Origin: Patescibacteria group bacterium
GTDB taxonomy: Bacteria; Patescibacteriota; Kazan-3B-28; UBA10110
NCBI GenBank assembly: GCA_018817805.1
Contig: JAHITC010000033.1
Location: forward strand, 1 to 41,430
Length of the DNA stretch: 41,430 bases
Direction of reading: 5' to 3'
Under the pieces are notes generated by a model. That model ran no database searches, was not told where the DNA came from, and was given only the letters and a program-made list of their open reading frames with translations. Of the stretch, positions 3,342 through 41,430 are shown piece after piece; position 1 is the first letter of the stretch; each line of letters begins with the position of its first letter. The translations under genes and the position numbers were made by a program.

Positions 3342-3981
3342 CTTTAGAAGTGAATGGTTCTCAATTTTTTGTTTTATTAGCGCTGTCATAATTTCGCTAT
3401 GGGCTTACCCACACCTGCCTGCCATGGTTCCATCTCATTGGAACATTCAGGGACAGATTGATGGTTATATGACTAGACTTGGACATACCATTGGTGTCCC
3501 CGGCATGATACTCGGAATATATATATTGTTTTTAGCAATTCCTGTTTTCGAGCCAAGACGACAAAATTTCTTCAGATCGATTGGTTTCTACCAGATGATC
3601 CGCAACTTTATGATGGGCTTTATGTTGCTAATATACATGGTTACTACCTGGATAGGAGTCACAGGGGAAGCGCTTGCAATTGGCAAAATCGTGCCACTGG
3701 CAGTTGGTATCTTATTTATCTTTATAGGTAACTATTTGAGCCAGATTAAATCTAACTTTTTTATGGGTATCCGAACCCCATGGACACTGTCTTCAGATAC
3801 AGTTTGGCAAAAGACCCACAGGTTAGGTGGATATACTTTTGTTATAGGTGGACTCTTGTTTATGGTAGCAGTGCTTTTTAATGAACCATGGAATTTCTAT
3901 CTACCAATGACTGGAATACTACTAGCAGCATTAGTGCCAGTAGTTTATTCTTATATTTCATTTAGACAGGAGCAGCAATAA
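3331..3981 (+). CDS. SdpI-family membrane protein (DUF1648 + SdpI immunity-like domain)
   Basis: HLPAMVPSHWNIQGQIDGY (DUF1648-like) and GNYLSQIKSNFFMGIRTPWTLSSDTVWQKTHRLGG (SdpI-like). The start is set at ATG 3331, with GGAG at 3321-3324. The track start at 3319 is TTG. Confidence 0.8.
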   Translation: MKINFRSEWFSIFCFISAVIISLWAYPHLPAMVPSHWNIQGQIDGYMTRLGHTIGVPGMILGIYILFLAIPVFEPRRQNFFRSIGFYQMIRNFMMGFMLLIYMVTTWIGVTGEALAIGKIVPLAVGILFIFIGNYLSQIKSNFFMGIRTPWTLSSDTVWQKTHRLGGYTFVIGGLLFMVAVLFNEPWNFYLPMTGILLAALVPVVYSYISFRQEQQ

Positions 3982-11212: not shown

Positions 11213-12679
11213 TTAACTTTGTATTATATCAAACACTTCGGCCACCTTTTCTCTAGCTTCCTCTGTAGCACCAGCTTTAACTACTAATTCAATCTCAAGA
11301 TCTTGGCCAAAGCTTTTTAGCATTTCAGAAATAACTTGCACATTAGCCTGTTTCTTAACTATATTCTTCAAAAATTCGCTAGGCAGTTCAATAACAATCT
11401 GCTTTTCAGTACATTTAACCGTGCTACCCCGGAGCAAAGAAGCTAACGCTGAGTTGCTAGTGCTAATTTTTTGGCAGATTTGTAGCCACAAATCTTGGCT
11501 AAGAGGTGTTTGCGATGACACCGACGGTAATGTTACATCCGGCTTGGGCACTTTTGAATCTACGTTAGTGGTAGTAGGTGGAGGGACACTATGACTCGAG
11601 GGTTTAATGGCACCAAAGAGCACCATCTCCAAAGCTAGTTGTGGCATGCTGGCCACCTTGTATTGGCTATTTGCTTCTGCTAAGCGCTGTAATAAATTAA
11701 CAAATATTTTGTAATCGACACCTTTTGCTTGAATGCGCATACTAGTTTTTTCGTCTTCGCTTCTAGATATTAAGCTATCATTACCCAAGCTGACCATCAT
11801 TAGTTCTCGCACGTACACCATCCACCGCTTTAGTAATTGATTTAAATCATATCCCTGATGATAAGCCTGGCCTATAAGGTCGATACCGCGAGTAATATTT
11901 TGGCTTAGAATAGATTCTGTTAACTCTCGAACAATCTGAACATCAACAATACCCAAAAGACCTTCCAGAGTTTGTCTATCGACTTCTGTAACATTTAAGC
12001 TTGCTACCTGGTCGAGAATACTAAGAGCATCGCGCAGGCTACCTTCCGCACCTTCAGCCACTGCGGCGATAGCTTCATCAGTAATAGAGATCTCTTCTTT
12101 AGCTGCAATCTGTTTAAGATAGTTAGTAATCGCCTCCCAACCTAAATGATGAAAATCGAAATATTGGCAACGCGAGACAATAGTAGGGAGTAGTTTGTGC
12201 ACCTCTGTAGTTGCAAGAATAAAGATTGCATGAGATGGCGGCTCCTCTAGCGTCTTAAGCAAAGCATTAAAAGCATTTTTGGATAACATGTGAGCCTCAT
12301 CAATAATGTAGACCTTGTACTTACCCACTGCTGGGGCTAAATTAACTTTTTCAATTAGGCTGCGCACATCATCAACCCCAGTATGCGAAGCGGCATCAAT
12401 TTCAATCAAATCCAACATCCGCCCTTCAATTAAAGCCAAACAGTTCTGACACTTGCCACATGGTTCACCATCCTGGTTGTCTTGGCAATTAATTGCCTTG
12501 GCCAATAACCTCGCCATCGTAGTTTTACCTGTACCCCTCGGGCCAGCAAACAAATATGCATGACTAATTTTGTTAAACCGAATTTCATTAAGCAAAGTTT
12601 GCTTAACGTGATCCTGATTAACTAAATCAGAAAACTTTTGCGGTCGATATTTCCTATATAAAACCTGACTCCCTTGCAT
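11213..12679 (-). CDS. dnaX: DNA polymerase III subunit gamma/tau
   Basis: YRKYRPQKFSDLVNQ...GPRGTGKTT...Cys cluster...SRCQ. The start is set at ATG 12679, which has GGAGG just upstream. The track start at 12712 is GTG. Confidence 0.9.
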   Translation of the reverse strand: MQGSQVLYRKYRPQKFSDLVNQDHVKQTLLNEIRFNKISHAYLFAGPRGTGKTTMARLLAKAINCQDNQDGEPCGKCQNCLALIEGRMLDLIEIDAASHTGVDDVRSLIEKVNLAPAVGKYKVYIIDEAHMLSKNAFNALLKTLEEPPSHAIFILATTEVHKLLPTIVSRCQYFDFHHLGWEAITNYLKQIAAKEEISITDEAIAAVAEGAEGSLRDALSILDQVASLNVTEVDRQTLEGLLGIVDVQIVRELTESILSQNITRGIDLIGQAYHQGYDLNQLLKRWMVYVRELMMVSLGNDSLISRSEDEKTSMRIQAKGVDYKIFVNLLQRLAEANSQYKVASMPQLALEMVLFGAIKPSSHSVPPPTTTNVDSKVPKPDVTLPSVSSQTPLSQDLWLQICQKISTSNSALASLLRGSTVKCTEKQIVIELPSEFLKNIVKKQANVQVISEMLKSFGQDLEIELVVKAGATEEAREKVAEVFDIIQS

Positions 12680-36998: not shown

Positions 36999-38085
36999 TT
37001 ATGGTTTTAACAAAATAACACTATTAATTAGCTCATCCAGATTGCCTTCTTCTAAAACTTCCTTAATCTGGGTGGTAATAAAATTGCTACGATGATCTTT
37101 AATTTGATGGTATGGATGCAACACATACGAACGAACTTGATGGCCAAAATCTCCAGACTGTTCAGAGCTTTTTAGAAATCTTTCAGCCTCGTCTTTATTT
37201 TGTTGATGACGTAGATATAACTTGTGTTTCAGAAGCTTCATCGCAGTTTCTTTGTTTTGCATCTGTGAACGCTCGTTTTGCACAGCAACTGAAAGTTTAG
37301 TTGGCAAATGCGTAATGCGCACTGCCGAATCGGTAGTGTTCACCCCCTGCCCCCCTTTGCCACTAGATTTAAACACATCAACCCGAAGTTCTTTCTCGGG
37401 AATATCCATCTCTTTTATATCCCCTAGATCAGGAATGACTTCGACTAATGCAAAGGAAGTTTGCCTTAGATTTTGAGAATTAAACGGTGAAAGACGCACC
37501 AACCGATGCACTCCTTTCTCAGCTTTTAGAAGACCATAAGCCATGTCCCCTTCTACTCTTAATGTAGCACTTTTCACCCCTGCTTCATTCCCTATAGCTT
37601 GGTCAACAATAGTCATCTTCCATCCTCTACGTACAGCATATTTTTGATACATCTCCATTAGCATTCTAGTCCAATCGGCAGCATCAGCTCCCCCAGTCCC
37701 ACTATGCAGAAACATGTATGCATCCTTGCGGTCGTATTCGCCGTTTAAAACTGTTTCACGCTCTAAGTTATCTAATCGTTTTTGTAAGTCGTCTAATAAC
37801 GCTACTGCCGCTTCATCAGTGCTAGAAAAATCTTCCCCCTTCATTACATTACCCAAGTTACTAAGCTGACTATCTATATCCGAAAGTTCTTCTAGAATCT
37901 TTTTATTCTTTTCAAATTCTTTAGTAATATTTGTAGCATTAACCTGATCCTCCCAAAAAACAGGATCAATCATCTCTTTTTCTAATTGTTTATTTTTTGA
38001 AGTAAGACCGGCCGGGTCAAAGATACCCCCGCAGTCTAGATAGCTGGTCTAAGGCTTCTGCGACTGAAAACTTGATTTCTTTCAT
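36999..38085 (-). CDS. prfB: peptide chain release factor 2, expressed via programmed +1 frameshift (join 38085..38020, 38018..36999)
   Basis: SPF and GGQ motifs occur in the long ORF. The upstream short frame is MKEIKFSVAEALDQLSRLRGYL, ending in CGG GGG TAT CTT TGA C, and the +1 frame continues DPAGLTSKNKQLEKEMIDP. Confidence 0.95.
38016..38032 (-). promoter_or_regulatory. prfB +1 frameshift site (internal SD-like GGGGG, slippery CTT, UGA C)
   Basis: Minus strand GCGGGGGTATCTTTGAC. The core is identical to the classical E. coli site. Confidence 0.9.
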
Positions 38086-38137
38086 AGATATATTATATCT
38101 CAATCATTAAGGATAATGATGAATGTATAACATAACC

Positions 38138-38166
38138 AAAACTCTCCCCACCAAAAGCCGGGAGAG
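38138..38166 (-). terminator. intrinsic terminator 12 nt downstream of the template repeat
   Basis: Minus strand CTCTCCC-GGCTTTTGGTG-GGGAGAG followed by TTTT. Confidence 0.55.
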
Positions 38167-38178
38167 AAATGAAGATAG

Positions 38179-38308
38179 TTGCGGCGGACAAAGACAAAAC
38201 GGTTGTCGCTATACCAATGATTGTCTGGATTGGCATAGTTCGTGTCAAGCCACGGGTCATTATCGTCGTGGTTGACATTGAACACCTTGAGGCCACCGTT
38301 CGAGTCCG
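38179..38308 (-). repeat. DGR-type template repeat (TR), non-coding
   Basis: 130 nt aligning without gaps to 38666-38795 (116/130 identical). All 14 differences are A in this copy on the minus strand. The homologous frame is preceded by TAA, has no ATG (a GTG lies inside it), and is rich in AAY codons. Confidence 0.8.
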
Positions 38309-38570
38309 TTTATGTGCAAAATACCTTCCATTGTCACTGCCCGACAAACGCTTTATCTAGCAGAGTGGCTGGGCTGTATTTTATCCGATTGTCTTTAAAC
38401 AATCTTAGCATCTTACACCAAGTATCTTCATTTTTTGAAGTTTCTACATGTGACCTCTGTTTTCAACCTTAATCGAAAACACTCTCATCACATGGATACT
38501 TAGTTTCGGTAGTCAGAAACCTTGGTCTCTGGCATATTCACCTACTTCCAGACATATTCTACCAGACATG

Positions 38571-38606
38571 AAAAAGCCCAGCTTTAGTTTGAAACTAAAG
38601 CTGGGC
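38571..38606 (-). terminator. intrinsic terminator of the variable-protein gene
   Basis: Minus strand GCCCAGCTTTAGTTT-C-AAACTAAAGCTGGGC followed by TTTTT. Confidence 0.7.
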
Positions 38607-38661
38607 AGGACAAAGTCCATCCATCCAAAGGATTCAAGGGGCCAAGGAACAAGTTCCAAGA

Positions 38662-39294
38662 TTACTTGCGGCGGACAAAGACAAAACGGAAGACGCTAGA
38701 CCAATGATAGTCTGGATCGGCACAGTACGTGTCAAGCCACGGGTCACTACCGACGTGGGAGACATTGAACACCTTGAGGCCACCGTACGAGTCCGCAATG
38801 GGTTCCATGCCGATAAGAATGTATTCTATTGGTGGTTGATCCTGGTAATCCAGACGTAATGCCGGACCAACTTCTGGTGGACAAAGTTGCAAACCCATGG
38901 ACGGCGCTTTTCCGTAGATATCCTTTTGAGTTGCGCCGCTGGGAAATCCGAGTTCAGCGACGGTTACCAACACGAGCTCAACATCGGTTGGTTCGTTTGT
39001 TATCTTGAATGCTGGTTTTTTGATCATGTCATTGGCCCAGTTACCAACTCTGAAACCAGCCTCCTTGAGCGCTTTGAGATAATCATCAGCACTCTTGTGG
39101 GCACCGAGTTTGATGGTCTTCCATGTCTTATTAAATTGACAATGGTCATCAATTACTGCCTGCATGGCAGCTTTTAATCGTCCAAGGTCTTTCTCAGACC
39201 TCCGGCCATCTCGCACCATTTTTATTATGGTCGCGAACCCGACCGTCAACCACTCGATCAAAGTGGCAATTTCAGAGTTTCTGGCTCTTGTCAT
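38662..39294 (-). CDS. DGR target (variable) protein candidate, 210 aa, otherwise uncharacterised
   Basis: ORF with GGAG 6 nt before ATG 39294. The C-terminal 43 codons are the variable repeat, and the C-terminus ...RFVFVRRK resembles the ends of C-type-lectin-fold DGR variable regions. It looks GC-richer than the flanks by eye. Confidence 0.75.
   Translation of the reverse strand: MTRARNSEIATLIEWLTVGFATIIKMVRDGRRSEKDLGRLKAAMQAVIDDHCQFNKTWKTIKLGAHKSADDYLKALKEAGFRVGNWANDMIKKPAFKITNEPTDVELVLVTVAELGFPSGATQKDIYGKAPSMGLQLCPPEVGPALRLDYQDQPPIEYILIGMEPIADSYGGLKVFNVSHVGSDPWLDTYCADPDYHWSSVFRFVFVRRK
38666..38795 (-). repeat. DGR-type variable repeat (VR) at the 3' end of the 210-aa gene
   Basis: Counterpart of the TR. 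It has T/C/G (minus strand) at the 14 TR-adenine positions, changing 12 codons, all non-synonymously. Confidence 0.8.
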
Positions 39295-39413
39295 TTTTAT
39301 CTCCATCCTGTGCTACTAACACAGGGCTCACTCTCTGTAATCCGGCTTTTCACGGCTCGGTGTCTAAGTGGCGCGATAACGCGATGATATCAAGGTCATC
39401 AATTTCCCCCCTA

Positions 39414-39467
39414 ATTTTATTCCTTTTTCAGTTCTCTGTCAAGAGTTATATGCTCTGGGAGCATATA
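39414..39467 (-). promoter_or_regulatory. near-consensus promoter with upstream 10-bp-arm palindrome for the variable-protein gene
   Basis: Minus strand TTGACA (39441-39436), 16 nt, TAAAAT (39419-39414). The palindrome TTATATGCTC-CCA-GAGCATATAA lies at 39445-39467. Confidence 0.55.
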
Positions 39468-39545: not shown

Positions 39546-41430
39546 TTATTCTTCTTCACCGGTAAAATCTTCCACTATAGTCACAAACCGAAGCTTATTT
39601 CTAATCTGTAACACTTTCCAGGTAGCTATAGTAGCAAGCAATGAAGCAATCGCCATTAATAACCAGTTAAGCGCACCAGTAGGAGTTAATGGGTCCGTAG
39701 ATCCACTGCCAGCCACAGTAATGTCGTTGGCGTAAACCCATATCCCATTTGAGACTTCATTTGCAGATACGAATGCCTTGGCTCTAACTAAAGTATTTCT
39801 AGGCACAACAGAGTTAATAACTACCCTCACTGTCATCGTCTTGCTTTCGTAAGGCATTAAGCTATTGCTTAATGTCCAAGTAATAGTGCGGTTGTTAATT
39901 GTAGGAGCACCGCTACCAGAGCTCGCAGAAATGAATTTAGTATACTCTGGCACATCGAAAGTAGCTCTTACGCCACTTAAGGTTGTGCTGCGGTTGTTAG
40001 TAATTCTTAAGGTATAAGCTAATACATCATTTTCTAGAGCACTACCACCGTTATCATCAATACCACTTAAGGTTGCATCGATACCATAGTTGTTGTCACT
40101 GCCACCAGTTCTGACAATAACATCTGCATAATCAGATCTTTCAATACCATTTCTGTAAGCTCTTACCCTAACAGTATTGTAATAAGTACCTATGTTATTG
40201 CTGGCAGTGAAATAACCACTTTGGTTAATATACCCAGCTTGGCTATTTACCACATCCCAAGTGTAAGAAGCTGAAACAGCATCACCAGATGTGTTATATG
40301 CTTGGGCCGAGAAATAAGTAGAAGCACCAGTATTTAAGGTAACGGTTTGAGGAGCTAAAGTTACATAACTTAACTCATCGTTGTAGTAACCACCAGTTAC
40401 TGTCACGGTAGCAGTGTCGTAGCGTTCGATGCTACCTTGCATGGCTTTAACTTCGACAGTAATTGTGCCTGTGGTATCGCTAGCTTGGTACAAACCATTT
40501 TGACTAATACTGCCACTACCAGAAAGTATTCTCCAGCTGTAACTGACGGAGCTAAACAATGGTGAATGGTTGGTGTCAAATGCTTGTGCATCAAAATCGA
40601 ACGATTGGTTAGTACTAATCGTAATCGAAGATGGATACGCCTCGACATAATCCAAAGCAGTCTGAACAATAATAGAATTTACAGTTACAGTTGCGTAGGC
40701 GTATACCACTTGGCCACCTATGCTACTGCCCATGCTAGCACGCACTTTAACGGTGCTATCAAAAGTACCAGAGGTAGTTCCGGCTGTGAATAAGCCCGTA
40801 TATGGCTCGATGCTGCCACCACTATGGATTACCGACCAGATATAATCTACGCCACTATTAATGATGCGATTGTATTGGTCGTAAGCTGTGGCTGTAAACT
40901 GTCTGGTTTGGTGTGGGTCTAAAACAGTATTAGCAGGATAAACCACTACCGAAGTAAGAATTATTTCTTCTTCAGTTTGATTAATAGTTACACTAACTGC
41001 ATCAGTAATAGTTTTCCCGTTATAACTACCGCTTAACTTAATTGCATTAGCGTAATATCCAGCCCTATTCCCAGCTGAATATAAGCCAGATTGGGTAATG
41101 GTGCCTACTTCAGTCGAGTTGTATCCACTCTCTATACTCCAAACAAATGAAGTAACCGAAGTAATATCATTTCCACTTGTATCGTAAGCTCTAGGATATA
41201 GCTGTTTGCTGTAATTCGGATCGATACTAAAGCTAGAGATTGATGAACCAACATTATCGATAATTTCGACTCTGAATAATGTCGCTACCGGTGTATCACC
41301 TTTAGTTACAATTACTCTAGCGTAAACTTCCAAAGCTCCATTAGGACTAGTAGCAGTTAGTTTAACTACATTGTTGTAAGTGCCAATGTTATGACCAGCT
41401 GTAAAGTAACCGGTTTGAGTAATTGAACCA
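39546..41430 (-). CDS. large surface protein, 5'-partial: repeated Big_2-like Ig domains, DUF11-like domain, C-terminal membrane anchor
   Basis: Repeats of the type G.I...G.FTAG...GTY...V.V. LAYTLRITNN...L.GV is DUF11-like. C-terminal helix LNWLLMAIASLLATIATW. The frame stays open to 41430 (GSITQTGYFTAGHNIGTYNNVV...), so the M at 41333 is not the start. Confidence 0.8.
   Translation of the reverse strand, partial: GSITQTGYFTAGHNIGTYNNVVKLTATSPNGALEVYARVIVTKGDTPVATLFRVEIIDNVGSSISSFSIDPNYSKQLYPRAYDTSGNDITSVTSFVWSIESGYNSTEVGTITQSGLYSAGNRAGYYANAIKLSGSYNGKTITDAVSVTINQTEEEIILTSVVVYPANTVLDPHQTRQFTATAYDQYNRIINSGVDYIWSVIHSGGSIEPYTGLFTAGTTSGTFDSTVKVRASMGSSIGGQVVYAYATVTVNSIIVQTALDYVEAYPSSITISTNQSFDFDAQAFDTNHSPLFSSVSYSWRILSGSGSISQNGLYQASDTTGTITVEVKAMQGSIERYDTATVTVTGGYYNDELSYVTLAPQTVTLNTGASTYFSAQAYNTSGDAVSASYTWDVVNSQAGYINQSGYFTASNNIGTYYNTVRVRAYRNGIERSDYADVIVRTGGSDNNYGIDATLSGIDDNGGSALENDVLAYTLRITNNRSTTLSGVRATFDVPEYTKFISASSGSGAPTINNRTITWTLSNSLMPYESKTMTVRVVINSVVPRNTLVRAKAFVSANEVSNGIWVYANDITVAGSGSTDPLTPTGALNWLLMAIASLLATIATWKVLQIRNKLRFVTIVEDFTGEEE

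What the first reader, a model, noticed from the sequence alone, without database searches (positions are those of the whole stretch)
38179..38795. DGR-style template/variable repeat pair: 130-nt repeats that differ only at template adenines
The last 43 codons of the 210-aa gene (38666-38795) and a non-coding copy 357 nt further downstream on the same strand (38179-38308) align gap-free over 130 nt with 14 mismatches.

Every mismatch is an A in the non-coding copy on the coding (minus) strand, where the gene copy has T (8), G (4) or C (2). That copy has 34 A's among its 130 positions. Finding 14 of 14 differences on A's by chance is about 1e-8 by my rough estimate.

The changes hit only 1st and 2nd codon positions of AAC/AAT/GAC/GAT/TAT codons: N->Y, N->S, D->V, D->G, N->S, N->Y, Y->C, N->D, N->Y, Y->S, D->V, N->F. 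That gives 12 variable residues inside an invariant scaffold GGLKVFNV..DPWLDT..PD.HW..RFVFVRR. The 3'-most 24 nt (CCGTTTTGTCTTTGTCCGCCGCAA) are identical in both copies, as expected for an IMH-like homing end.

Adenine-specific TR-to-VR mutagenesis is the defining signature of diversity-generating retroelements (the Bordetella phage BPP-1 mtd/TR/brt paradigm).
Basis: partly seen in the sequence, partly recalled or inferred. Interest (0 to 1): 0.9.

Follow-up and report, generated by a model that had tools for sequence, protein, structure and literature searches.

The report
Orphan DGR cassette without reverse transcriptase
A Patescibacteria (CPR) bacterium carries a genuine hypermutation cassette of a diversity-generating retroelement, a target gene plus the RNA gene that templates its variable tip, but not the reverse transcriptase that normally sits beside it, and relatives suggest such "solo" cassettes keep working with an enzyme encoded elsewhere.

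Summary
VR 38666-38795 and TR 38179-38308 (minus strand) align gap-free over 130 nt. All 14 mismatches fall on TR adenines (p = 6e-10), all at codon positions 1 or 2.

The pair belongs to the Patescibacteria-specific DGR clade. Homologous targets elsewhere have the order target(VR), about 350 nt leader, TR, avd (opposite strand), RT. Here avd and RT are missing: prfB starts 53 nt after the TR hairpin's U-tract, and family HMMs find no RT or Avd in the 41 kb.

The stretch between VR and TR is a conserved structured RNA leader: 52 base pairs, 44 with compensatory changes, no Rfam match. It has its own -10 element, and a terminator hairpin follows the TR. The TR is therefore an independent RNA gene.

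Ten such intact solo cassettes were found, three pairs of them syntenic across species. Solo TRs evolve like coding DNA (dN/dS 0.14). Each VR tracks its own lineage's TR substitutions (14/14 here). One contig holds a solo and a full DGR whose leaders are 98% identical.

Best reading: a non-autonomous cassette served in trans, at least until recently. A recent fossil is the main rival. No RT was found for this genome.

The parts
39414..39442 (-). Promoter-like site of the target gene (TTGACA, 17 nt, TAAAAT)
   Evidence: Consensus scan, 11 of 12 matches. The same element is visible in the syntenic L007. Function is inferred.
38662..39294 (-). DGR target gene, 210 aa (NCBI MBU1083275.1, KKE14_02455). 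It has an N-terminal helical hairpin plus an alpha/beta domain that ends in the VR.
   Evidence: ORF. No Pfam hit. Fifty homologues, all from Patescibacteria or metagenomes. Homologues lie in complete DGRs. AF2 model pLDDT 92. Weak C-type-lectin-like fold hits.
38666..38795 (-). Variable repeat (VR), the last 43 codons of the target
   Evidence: 130-nt gap-free match to the TR with 14 mismatches, all opposite TR adenines, at codon positions 1/2.
38576..38606 (-). 14-bp hairpin plus U-tract downstream of the VR. It is the target-gene terminator and is positionally equivalent to the hairpin that follows the IMH (initiation of mutagenic homing site at the VR 3' end) in known DGRs.
   Evidence: Terminator scan. 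Fold -23.3 kcal/mol, z = -7.2. An equivalent hairpin is present in L004, L005 and L007.
38556..38564 (-). Extended -10 element (TGgTAGAAT) of the TR-RNA gene
   Evidence: The position and the TGnTAnAAT consensus are conserved across 74 leader sequences (alignment A2). Transcription start is inferred, not shown.
38309..38549 (-). Structured leader RNA upstream of the TR (about 240 nt, 10 helices, invariant core AAAAAAUGAAGAUACUUGGU at 38417-38436)
   Evidence: Conserved in 71 genome loci. 52 consensus pairs, 44 with compensatory changes, 95.8% of cells paired against 38-49% when slid, covariation 0.66 against 0.29 shuffled. Single-sequence fold z = -4.4. No Rfam family matches. It occurs once in the window.
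38179..38308 (-). Template repeat (TR), non-coding
   Evidence: In the VR frame it evolves under purifying selection against the syntenic L007 TR (dN 0.09, dS 0.67; ratio about 1.2 in the other two frames).
38138..38178 (-). Conserved linker (CUAUCUUCAUUU), hairpin (UCUCUCC.../...GGAGAGA) and U-tract. This is the presumed 3' end of the TR RNA.
   Evidence: Conserved in sequence, with covariation in the stem, in solo and complete loci alike. Fold -17.9 kcal/mol, z = -3.8. In complete DGRs the avd gene ends immediately after it on the other strand.

Best explanation
The two repeats are the VR and TR of a diversity-generating retroelement of the Patescibacteria-specific clade. The locus is a complete but non-autonomous cassette: a target gene plus an independent TR-RNA gene, made of its own -10 element, a leader of about 240 nt, the TR, a conserved linker and a terminator hairpin. 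It has no avd and no RT.

Proposed mechanism:
1. The TR RNA is transcribed on its own.
2. An RT-Avd complex encoded elsewhere in the genome recognises the conserved leader and 3' hairpin. The likeliest source is a full DGR of the same clade.
3. That complex copies the TR into cDNA, misincorporating opposite adenines.
4. The cDNA replaces the VR at the GC-rich identical 3' end and hairpin. This rewrites up to 12 or more codons at the C-terminal tip of a 210-aa, probably lectin-like, binding protein.

Shown here:
- the A-only TR/VR pattern
- membership of the clade
- absence of RT and Avd in cis
- the covarying leader structure
- coding-like constraint on the TR
- TR-to-VR concerted evolution after lineage splits

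Inferred:
- transcription limits
- which RNA parts bind RT-Avd
- the priming site
- the existence and location of the trans RT in this genome
- whether the cassette is active today
For: A-specific pattern: 14 of 14 mismatches at TR adenines, p = 6e-10, codon positions 1/2.

Clade membership: target homologues lie in loci ordered target-leader-TR-avd(-)-RT(+). Pfam gives bAvd at 43.7 bits and RVT_1. Sixty of 71 genome loci that carry the leader motif have avd and/or RT right after the TR.

No RT or Avd in cis: family HMMs at E <= 10 and a YxDD scan find nothing in 41 kb. prfB begins 53 nt after the TR hairpin's U-tract.

Not an assembly accident: an ENA contig (L002) is 100% identical across the TR-prfB junction, a Logan contig (L001) matches up to a point between VR and TR, and a different species (L007) has the same arrangement.

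The TR is an independent RNA gene: conserved -10 element, covarying leader and terminator hairpin.

Intact solo cassettes recur: window, L007, L015, L022, L023, L044, L051, L054, L057, L080. Three pairs are syntenic across species: window/L007, L051/L054 and L015/L023. Their flanking genes have saturated dS of 1.8-3.6.

The TR is constrained as a coding template in solos: window vs L007 dN/dS 0.14 in frame against about 1.2 out of frame; L051 vs L054 0.31. TR nucleotide identity is 84%, against 61% for the target N-terminal part.

Concerted evolution after divergence: at 14 sites where the window and L007 TRs differ and neither base is A, the window VR follows its own TR 14/14 and the L007 VR follows its own 11/14. 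For L051/L054 the figures are 6/6 and 6/6.

Direct example of one RT with two TR RNAs: L022 (solo) and L032 (full) lie on the same 138-kb contig. Their leaders are 98% identical over 370 nt, their TRs and targets differ, and both pairs have 0 non-A mismatches.

True relics look different: in L082, L025 and L031 the leader is truncated and the TR is gone.
Against: No RT or Avd was identified for this genome. Its assembly is not in the genome collection scanned. A search with the Avd profile gave more than 7,358 clusters, and none could be tied to this MAG.

The VR is identical in the NCBI, Logan, JGI and ENA assemblies. No population variation was seen, though these may derive from the same samples and consensus contigs hide minor variants.

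The sister cassette L007 shows decay: 13 non-A mismatches, and 3 of 14 TR substitutions not copied. Solos can therefore fall silent.

In 5 of the 7 genome assemblies with intact solos, no second locus with the exact leader motif was found. MAG incompleteness and the exact-match pattern limit this.

Independent recent deletions of avd-RT in each lineage cannot be excluded formally.
Confidence: 0.58

Rival explanations
1. Fossil. The cassette is what remains of a complete DGR whose avd-RT module was deleted recently. The VR is frozen in its last diversified state and the TR RNA gene has not yet had time to decay.
For: No RT or Avd in 41 kb. The VR is identical in four assemblies. Decay is visible in the syntenic L007 (13 non-A mismatches). 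Truncated relics exist in the clade (L082, L025, L031). Partial, RT-less DGRs were earlier read as possible fossils in Nanoarchaeota (PMC4372165).
Against: There are zero non-A differences in 130 nt. The promoter, all leader helices, the linker and the hairpin are fully intact.

The solo state is shared with L007 at the same chromosomal site although flanking genes have saturated dS. Yet both lineages copied lineage-specific TR substitutions into their VRs, as did L051/L054. A fossil scenario therefore needs separate, recent, precise deletions in each of at least four lineages.

The window-type leader motif has so far been found only in solo form, 5 of 5 evaluable.
Confidence: 0.33
2. The RT-Avd module is nearby in cis but outside the contig, beyond window position 41430 upstream of the large surface-protein gene, in an unusual gene order.
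For: The contig ends 2.1 kb upstream of the target, inside a repetitive surface-protein gene. What lies beyond is unknown.
Against: In all 60 complete loci of the clade, avd and RT lie downstream of the TR. Other solos show no RT for 5 kb upstream (L051, L080) or 6-7 kb downstream (L023, L044, L054). Functionally this would still be an RT acting on a separately transcribed TR RNA.
Confidence: 0.05
3. Ordinary paralogous or duplicated sequence, or an assembly artefact, with the A-bias arising by chance.
For: None beyond the fact that repeats can mislead assemblers. One Logan contig does break between VR and TR.
Against: p = 6e-10 for the A-bias. The same geometry and bias occur in more than 55 related loci. 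An independent ENA contig is identical across both junctions, and a syntenic second species has the same arrangement.
Confidence: 0.01

Closest known systems
Patescibacteria/CPR diversity-generating retroelements (DGR clade 2 of Roux et al. 2021, PMC8144416; the 'CPR set' of Wu et al. 2018, PMC5758913)
   Same: Same host group. Homologous target proteins, about 200 aa, with no recognisable domain. Same TR/VR length, spacing and A-bias. Same leader RNA and post-TR hairpin.
   Different: The avd and RT genes that define those elements, and that anchor every published survey, are absent here. I did not find the leader RNA and the antisense avd orientation described in the papers I could read. The key CPR paper, Paul et al. 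2017, was not available.
Bordetella phage BPP-1 DGR (mtd-avd-TR-brt)
   Same: Adenine-specific TR-to-VR differences. VR at the 3' end of the target ORF. Identical GC-rich 3' end followed by a hairpin. A bAvd-family accessory protein and an RT with [LIV]GxxxSQ in complete relatives. avd/TR/brt are known to work in trans from a plasmid (PMC5758913).
   Different: The order in complete relatives is target-leader-TR-avd(antisense)-RT. The large structured RNA part lies 5' of the TR, not in a 140-nt spacer 3' of it. This locus has no RT or Avd. The target fold match to C-type lectins is weak.
Partial, RT-less DGRs of DUSEL4 Nanoarchaeota (Paul et al. 2015, PMC4372165)
   Same: Target gene with a VR showing adenine mutagenesis at a site without an RT. 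The authors proposed either a fossil or remote diversification.
   Different: Different domain of life and an unrelated target. Those fragments were described as target, VR and cis elements. Here a complete, separately terminated TR-RNA gene is retained, and comparative tests (TR dN/dS, TR-VR co-evolution across species) bear on the fossil-versus-trans question.
Remote target genes of Treponema denticola, Legionella and lineage-4 DGRs
   Same: RT acting at a distance from the diversified gene (PMC5758913; PMC4891356).
   Different: There the remote locus holds only a VR that matches the single TR next to the RT. Here the remote locus brings its own, different TR.
Non-autonomous retroelements (ORF-less group II introns, SINEs); an analogy from general knowledge
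   Same: An RNA-only element that keeps the structured RNA recognised by a protein encoded by an autonomous relative.
   Different: The cassette does not copy itself to new sites. It rewrites one adjacent gene segment. This is a resemblance only, not tested.

Membership tests
Diversity-generating retroelement (DGR) | TR/VR repeat pair whose differences are confined to template adenines | tested here: met
   14 of 14 mismatches at TR A, p = 6e-10.
Diversity-generating retroelement (DGR) | VR at the 3' end of a protein-coding target, with changes at codon positions 1/2 (AAY-type codons) | tested here: met
   Last 43 codons. All changes at positions 1/2. 12 residues changed.
Diversity-generating retroelement (DGR) | DGR-clade reverse transcriptase encoded in the element | tested here: not met
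   No hit to the clade RT HMM at E <= 10 and no YxDD in an RT context in 41 kb. The rest of the genome could not be searched.
Diversity-generating retroelement (DGR) | Accessory gene (avd) | tested here: not met
   No hit to the clade Avd HMM in the window. It is present, antisense, in 63 related loci and confirmed as Pfam bAvd.
Diversity-generating retroelement (DGR) | IMH-like identical GC-rich 3' end of the VR followed by an inverted repeat | tested here: met
   24 identical nt ending GTCCGCCGCAA. 14-bp hairpin about 60 nt downstream. Its function in homing is not testable here.
Diversity-generating retroelement (DGR) | Ongoing diversification (VR polymorphism in the population) | tested here: inconclusive
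   Consensus VR is identical in four assemblies. Reads were not available.
Patescibacteria DGR clade (Roux clade 2) | Target homologous to targets of complete DGRs of that clade; host is Patescibacteria | tested here: met
   Homologues at 44-62% identity in L004, L005 and L083 next to avd and RT. NCBI names the source Patescibacteria group bacterium.
Patescibacteria DGR clade (Roux clade 2) | Clade-specific leader RNA upstream of the TR and conserved linker-hairpin after the TR (features defined here) | tested here: met
   Exact core motif at 38417-38436. 47 of 52 consensus pairs formed, 3 gapped. Linker and hairpin conserved.
C-type-lectin-fold DGR variable proteins | CLec fold carrying the VR on its surface | tested here: inconclusive
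   Confident model (pLDDT 92). The best PDB matches are C-type lectin-like domains, but at E 0.05-1 and TM 0.41-0.45. No Mtd, TvpA or other solved DGR variable protein among the hits, nothing significant in BFVD and nothing by sequence profile.

The most novel reading that the evidence does not exclude
Patescibacteria maintain a class of non-autonomous DGR cassettes over speciation timescales. Each cassette is a target gene plus a free-standing TR-RNA gene. A conserved, roughly 240-nt structured leader marks these RNAs for an RT-Avd complex encoded elsewhere. One enzyme would then service several different templates and targets. RT-anchored surveys would systematically miss a tenth or more of diversified loci.
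Probability: 0.45. Interest if true: 0.75.

Novelty: new variant of a known kind. Interest (0 to 1): 0.62.

Why it matters
DGRs are catalogued by finding the RT first, so TR-VR cassettes that live apart from any RT are invisible to current surveys. If such cassettes are served in trans, several things follow.

- The number of hypermutated genes in CPR bacteria is underestimated. About 12% of leader-bearing loci here are solo or relic.
- A single RT-Avd can be programmed by several templates in nature. That is the property engineers want from DGR-based mutagenesis systems.
- The conserved leader, with strong covariation and no Rfam match, becomes a candidate RT-Avd recognition module. It can be used as a search handle and tested biochemically.

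The locus also offers a clean comparative test of fossil versus trans-active, a question left open since the Nanoarchaeota partial DGRs of 2015.

Tried and rejected
1. Looked for the RT in the window with a YxDD scan, Pfam on neighbouring ORFs, and clade-specific RT and Avd HMMs on all six-frame ORFs. Nothing was found.

2. Tried to find the RT/Avd of this MAG.
- The genome-collection scan did not contain this assembly.
- The JGI metagenome scan with the window-type leader returned only three contigs, none with RT.
- An Avd-profile search returned more than 7,358 clusters with only the top 120 listed, none attributable to locus-tag prefix KKE14.
- All of this is inconclusive.

3. Looked for VR variants of the same protein in other assemblies. 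All cluster members were identical in the VR.

4. Phage origin. The leader pattern has 0 hits in IMG/VR.

5. Rfam. No family matches the leader; the only hit was a sub-threshold chance match on the other strand.

6. Fold assignment. Foldseek against PDB and BFVD, and a profile search of PDB sequences, gave no significant match. The lectin-fold claim is therefore left inconclusive.

7. Paul et al. 2017 (CPR DGRs) could not be read. Prior description of the leader or of solo cassettes there cannot be excluded.

8. Gene conversion alone as the cause of TR-VR co-evolution was rejected. It would also erase the A-site differences.

9. Chance or paralogy was rejected on the statistics.

Full report
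OBSERVATION

The repeat is real and exactly as described. The repeat finder reports one family, 38176-38308 and 38663-38795, 133 nt, 89% identical. On the minus strand the 130-nt core aligns without gaps. There are 14 mismatches, and each is an A in the downstream, non-coding copy: 8 A>T, 4 A>G, 2 A>C. That copy has 34 A, of which 20 are unchanged. The chance that all 14 differences fall on A is 6.4e-10. All changes hit codon positions 1 or 2 of ORF 38662-39294 (210 aa) and alter 12 residues. The last 24 nt are identical.

WHAT THE LOCUS IS

The window is a whole contig of a Patescibacteria MAG. The protein is MBU1083275.1, KKE14_02455. An ENA contig starts at the same end as the window.

The 210-aa protein has no Pfam domain but has about 50 homologues. 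Where these lie on long contigs they sit in complete DGRs.
- In L004 there are two tandem targets, then the TR, a bAvd gene on the opposite strand, and an RVT_1 gene.
- L005 and L083 have a single target followed by the same downstream order.
- The RTs carry LGNLTSQ and Y(A/C)DD.

The TR/VR pair is therefore a genuine DGR pair of the Patescibacteria-specific clade (Roux et al. 2021, clade 2; PMC8144416).

WHAT IS MISSING

Downstream of the TR a short conserved linker and hairpin end with a U-tract at about 38138. prfB starts at 38085 and is followed by ftsE, ftsX, an M23 peptidase and an S41 peptidase. Upstream lies a large DUF11/CLIPPER-type surface protein that runs off the contig.

HMMs built from 45 clade RTs and 63 clade Avds find nothing in any frame of the 41 kb, even at E <= 10. 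A YxDD scan finds no RT-like context.

This is not an assembly accident. An ENA contig (L002) is 100% identical across the TR-prfB junction, and a Logan contig (L001) matches up to a point between VR and TR. The closest homologue (58% identity, L007, another sample and species) has the same order: surface protein, target, TR, prfB, ftsE.

THE TR IS A FREE-STANDING RNA GENE

The 357 nt between VR and TR are not a spacer. After the 14-bp terminator of the target (38576-38606) comes a conserved extended -10 element (TGnTAnAAT, 38556-38564). A sequence conserved in every related locus follows.

A pattern taken from its invariant core, AAAAAAYRAAGATACTTGGT-N22-34-ATAARATWCA, found 71 loci in one genome per species. 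Nearly all are from CPR lineages. The TR always begins 45-70 nt after the motif, with rare exceptions.

RNAalifold on 49 sequences predicts 52 pairs in 10 helices, 44 with compensatory double changes. Counting on that alignment gives:
- 95.8% of cells paired, against 38-49% when partners are slid;
- covariation 0.66, against 0.29 for shuffles (0 of 500 reach the observed value) and 0.12-0.18 when slid.

A long-range helix joins the segment after the invariant core to the nucleotides just before the TR. The window sequence folds into the same helices on its own (z = -4.4). Rfam 15 has no matching family.

Right after the TR, a linker (ACUNUCUUYAUUU) and a hairpin with a U-tract are conserved, with stem covariation. 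In complete loci, avd ends immediately after this hairpin on the other strand.

The TR RNA therefore appears to be its own transcription unit, separate from the RT mRNA. That makes service in trans mechanistically natural. It was also shown experimentally for the Bordetella element supplied from a plasmid (cited in PMC5758913).

SOLO CASSETTES ARE A RECURRENT CLASS

Of the 71 genome loci:
- 60 have avd and/or RT after the TR;
- 7 are intact cassettes with neither, despite enough flanking sequence (L015, L022, L023, L044, L051, L054, L057);
- 2 are truncated relics (L025, L031);
- 2 are too short to call.

Adding the window, L007 and a JGI contig (L080) gives ten intact solos. L082 is another relic, with the leader cut in half and the TR gone.

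Solos fall into three syntenic pairs from different species:
- window/L007, upstream of prfB-ftsE;
- L051/L054, upstream of ruvA;
- L015/L023, upstream of a conserved two-gene block followed by rpsM.

The window-type leader (GGAAGTAGGTGAATATGMCAG) has so far been seen only in solo form: window, L007, L044, L054 and L080. L079 is too short to call.

FOSSIL OR WORKING?

Several tests bear on this.

(a) The window pair has no non-A difference in 130 nt. Other solos have 0 (L022, L051), 1 (L044), 2 (L080), 3 (L054), 4 (L023), 9 (L057) and 13 (L007). Complete loci mostly have 0-2, with a few up to 9.

(b) Window and L007 are old relatives. prfB, ftsE and the surface protein have dS of 1.8-3.6, which is saturated. 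The target N-terminal part is only 61% identical in nucleotides. The non-coding TRs are nevertheless 84% identical. Their differences behave like coding changes in the VR frame (dN 0.09, dS 0.67), but not in the other two frames (ratio about 1.2). L007/L044 gives 0.28 and L051/L054 gives 0.31. A template that is never copied into a gene should not be constrained in this way.

(c) At the 14 sites where the window and L007 TRs differ and neither base is A, the window VR carries its own TR's base 14 of 14 times. The L007 VR carries its own TR's base 11 of 14 times. With L044 as outgroup, derived changes on both branches have been copied. L051/L054 give 6/6 and 6/6. Template-to-gene transfer therefore continued after these lineages split, in lineages that all lack a cis RT. 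Gene conversion alone would also have erased the A-site differences.

(d) On contig CAYRHW010000001.1, a solo (L022) and a complete DGR (L032) have leaders 98% identical over 370 nt. Their TRs and targets are unrelated, and each pair has 18-22 A-mismatches and no other mismatch. This looks like one RT-Avd serving two templates. A second such pair lies on a Kazan-group contig (L057/L037).

Against current activity here:
- No RT was found for this genome.
- The VR is identical in four assemblies, possibly from the same samples.
- L007 has begun to decay.
- Five of the seven solo-bearing assemblies show no second exact-motif locus.
- Independent recent deletions in each lineage remain possible, although at least four would be needed.

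I put about 0.58 on trans service, at least until very recently. I put about 0.33 on a recent fossil.

THE TARGET PROTEIN

The AlphaFold model is confident (pLDDT 92). It has an N-terminal helical hairpin (residues 2-54) and an alpha/beta domain whose last three strands (173-208) carry the VR.

Foldseek against the PDB puts C-type lectin-like domains first (mincle, NKR-P1, BDCA2, plus Bd2740-C), but only at E 0.05-1 and TM 0.41-0.45. BFVD and a sequence profile against the PDB give nothing significant. The lectin-fold expectation is plausible but not established. This matches published remarks that CPR targets lack recognisable domains (PMC8144416; PMC5758913).

COMPARISON WITH WHAT IS KNOWN

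The adenine-mutagenesis signature, VR placement, the IMH-like end (the identical GC-rich 3' end where homing starts) and its hairpin, and the Avd/RT of relatives are all standard DGR features.

Remote VRs served by a distant RT and TR are known in Treponema, Legionella and others (PMC5758913; PMC4891356). RT-less partial DGRs were noted in Nanoarchaeota and left as "fossils or diversified remotely" (PMC4372165).

Three things differ here:
- The remote locus brings its own complete TR-RNA gene.
- The clade has a large covarying leader 5' of the TR and an antisense avd.
- Comparative evidence argues that solos stay functional across speciation.

The main CPR DGR paper (Paul et al. 2017) could not be read, so some of this may already be described. 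I rate the finding a new variant of a known kind.

VERDICT

The finding is confirmed and its interpretation is correct. The added value is that the locus is a non-autonomous cassette, not a full retroelement. It also exposes a conserved structured RNA and a recurrent solo architecture that deserve follow-up.

Noticed in passing
window 38085-36999 (minus); frameshift site 38022-38016: prfB (release factor 2) carries the classical programmed +1 frameshift: SD-like GGGGGT at 38030-38025, then CTT TGA C. The short ORF1 has 22 codons. The same site is present in L007.
   Followed up: partly
window about 39310-39400 (minus); L007 2340-2428: The 5' UTR of the target gene is conserved between window and L007. 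This includes a hairpin (CCCTGTGTTAGTAGCACAGG) just before the ribosome-binding site, although the coding N-terminus is only about 60% identical. It may be a regulatory element.
   Followed up: no
63 related loci, e.g. L004 11098-11502 (-): In this DGR clade avd is always encoded on the strand opposite to the target, TR and RT. It ends right at the TR terminator hairpin, so that hairpin may terminate both transcripts.
   Followed up: partly
L004 1905-5096; L083 459-3698: Two complete DGRs with close target homologues lie next to a shared block of terminase-like gene, 140-aa gene and ParB_N-N6_N4 methyltransferase, which suggests a prophage-like neighbourhood. Yet the leader motif has no hit in IMG/VR.
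   Followed up: partly
L082 698-1204; L025 1480-1760; L031 7169-7400: Truncated relics of the cassette: the leader is broken and the TR absent. In L025 the break coincides with two tRNA genes on the other strand. In L082 the invariant ACTTGGT has mutated to ACTTAGT.
   Followed up: partly
L004 about 11480-11515: A (CT)7(GT)8 microsatellite lies between the divergent avd and RT starts. It could act as a slippage-prone switch.
   Followed up: no
L007 about 1925-2010 and 3570-3690: MITE-like repeats (gtcatcc...atcgtcattctg...cagaatctaat) flank the cassette in L007. They account for its longer TR-prfB spacer.
   Followed up: no
window 38001-39000: Local G+C is 0.455, against about 0.38-0.40 for the rest of the contig. 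The cassette is compositionally distinct.
   Followed up: no
window 39546-41430 (minus): A large surface protein with DUF11/CLIPPER-type repeats and a C-terminal hydrophobic anchor runs off the contig end. It is conserved and syntenic in L007 (79% aa identity).
   Followed up: no
loci (e.g. L051, L054, L019, L022 versus window, L007, L032, L057): Two unrelated VR sequence classes (…NLKVFNVNHDDND.WLNTNY.NPDNHWNGNNRFVFVRR and …NLVVRYLNWNGTRWNWNYNWLDNDWNDNNPAAL) are served by the same leader type. This suggests that templates and targets are swapped behind a constant leader.
   Followed up: partly
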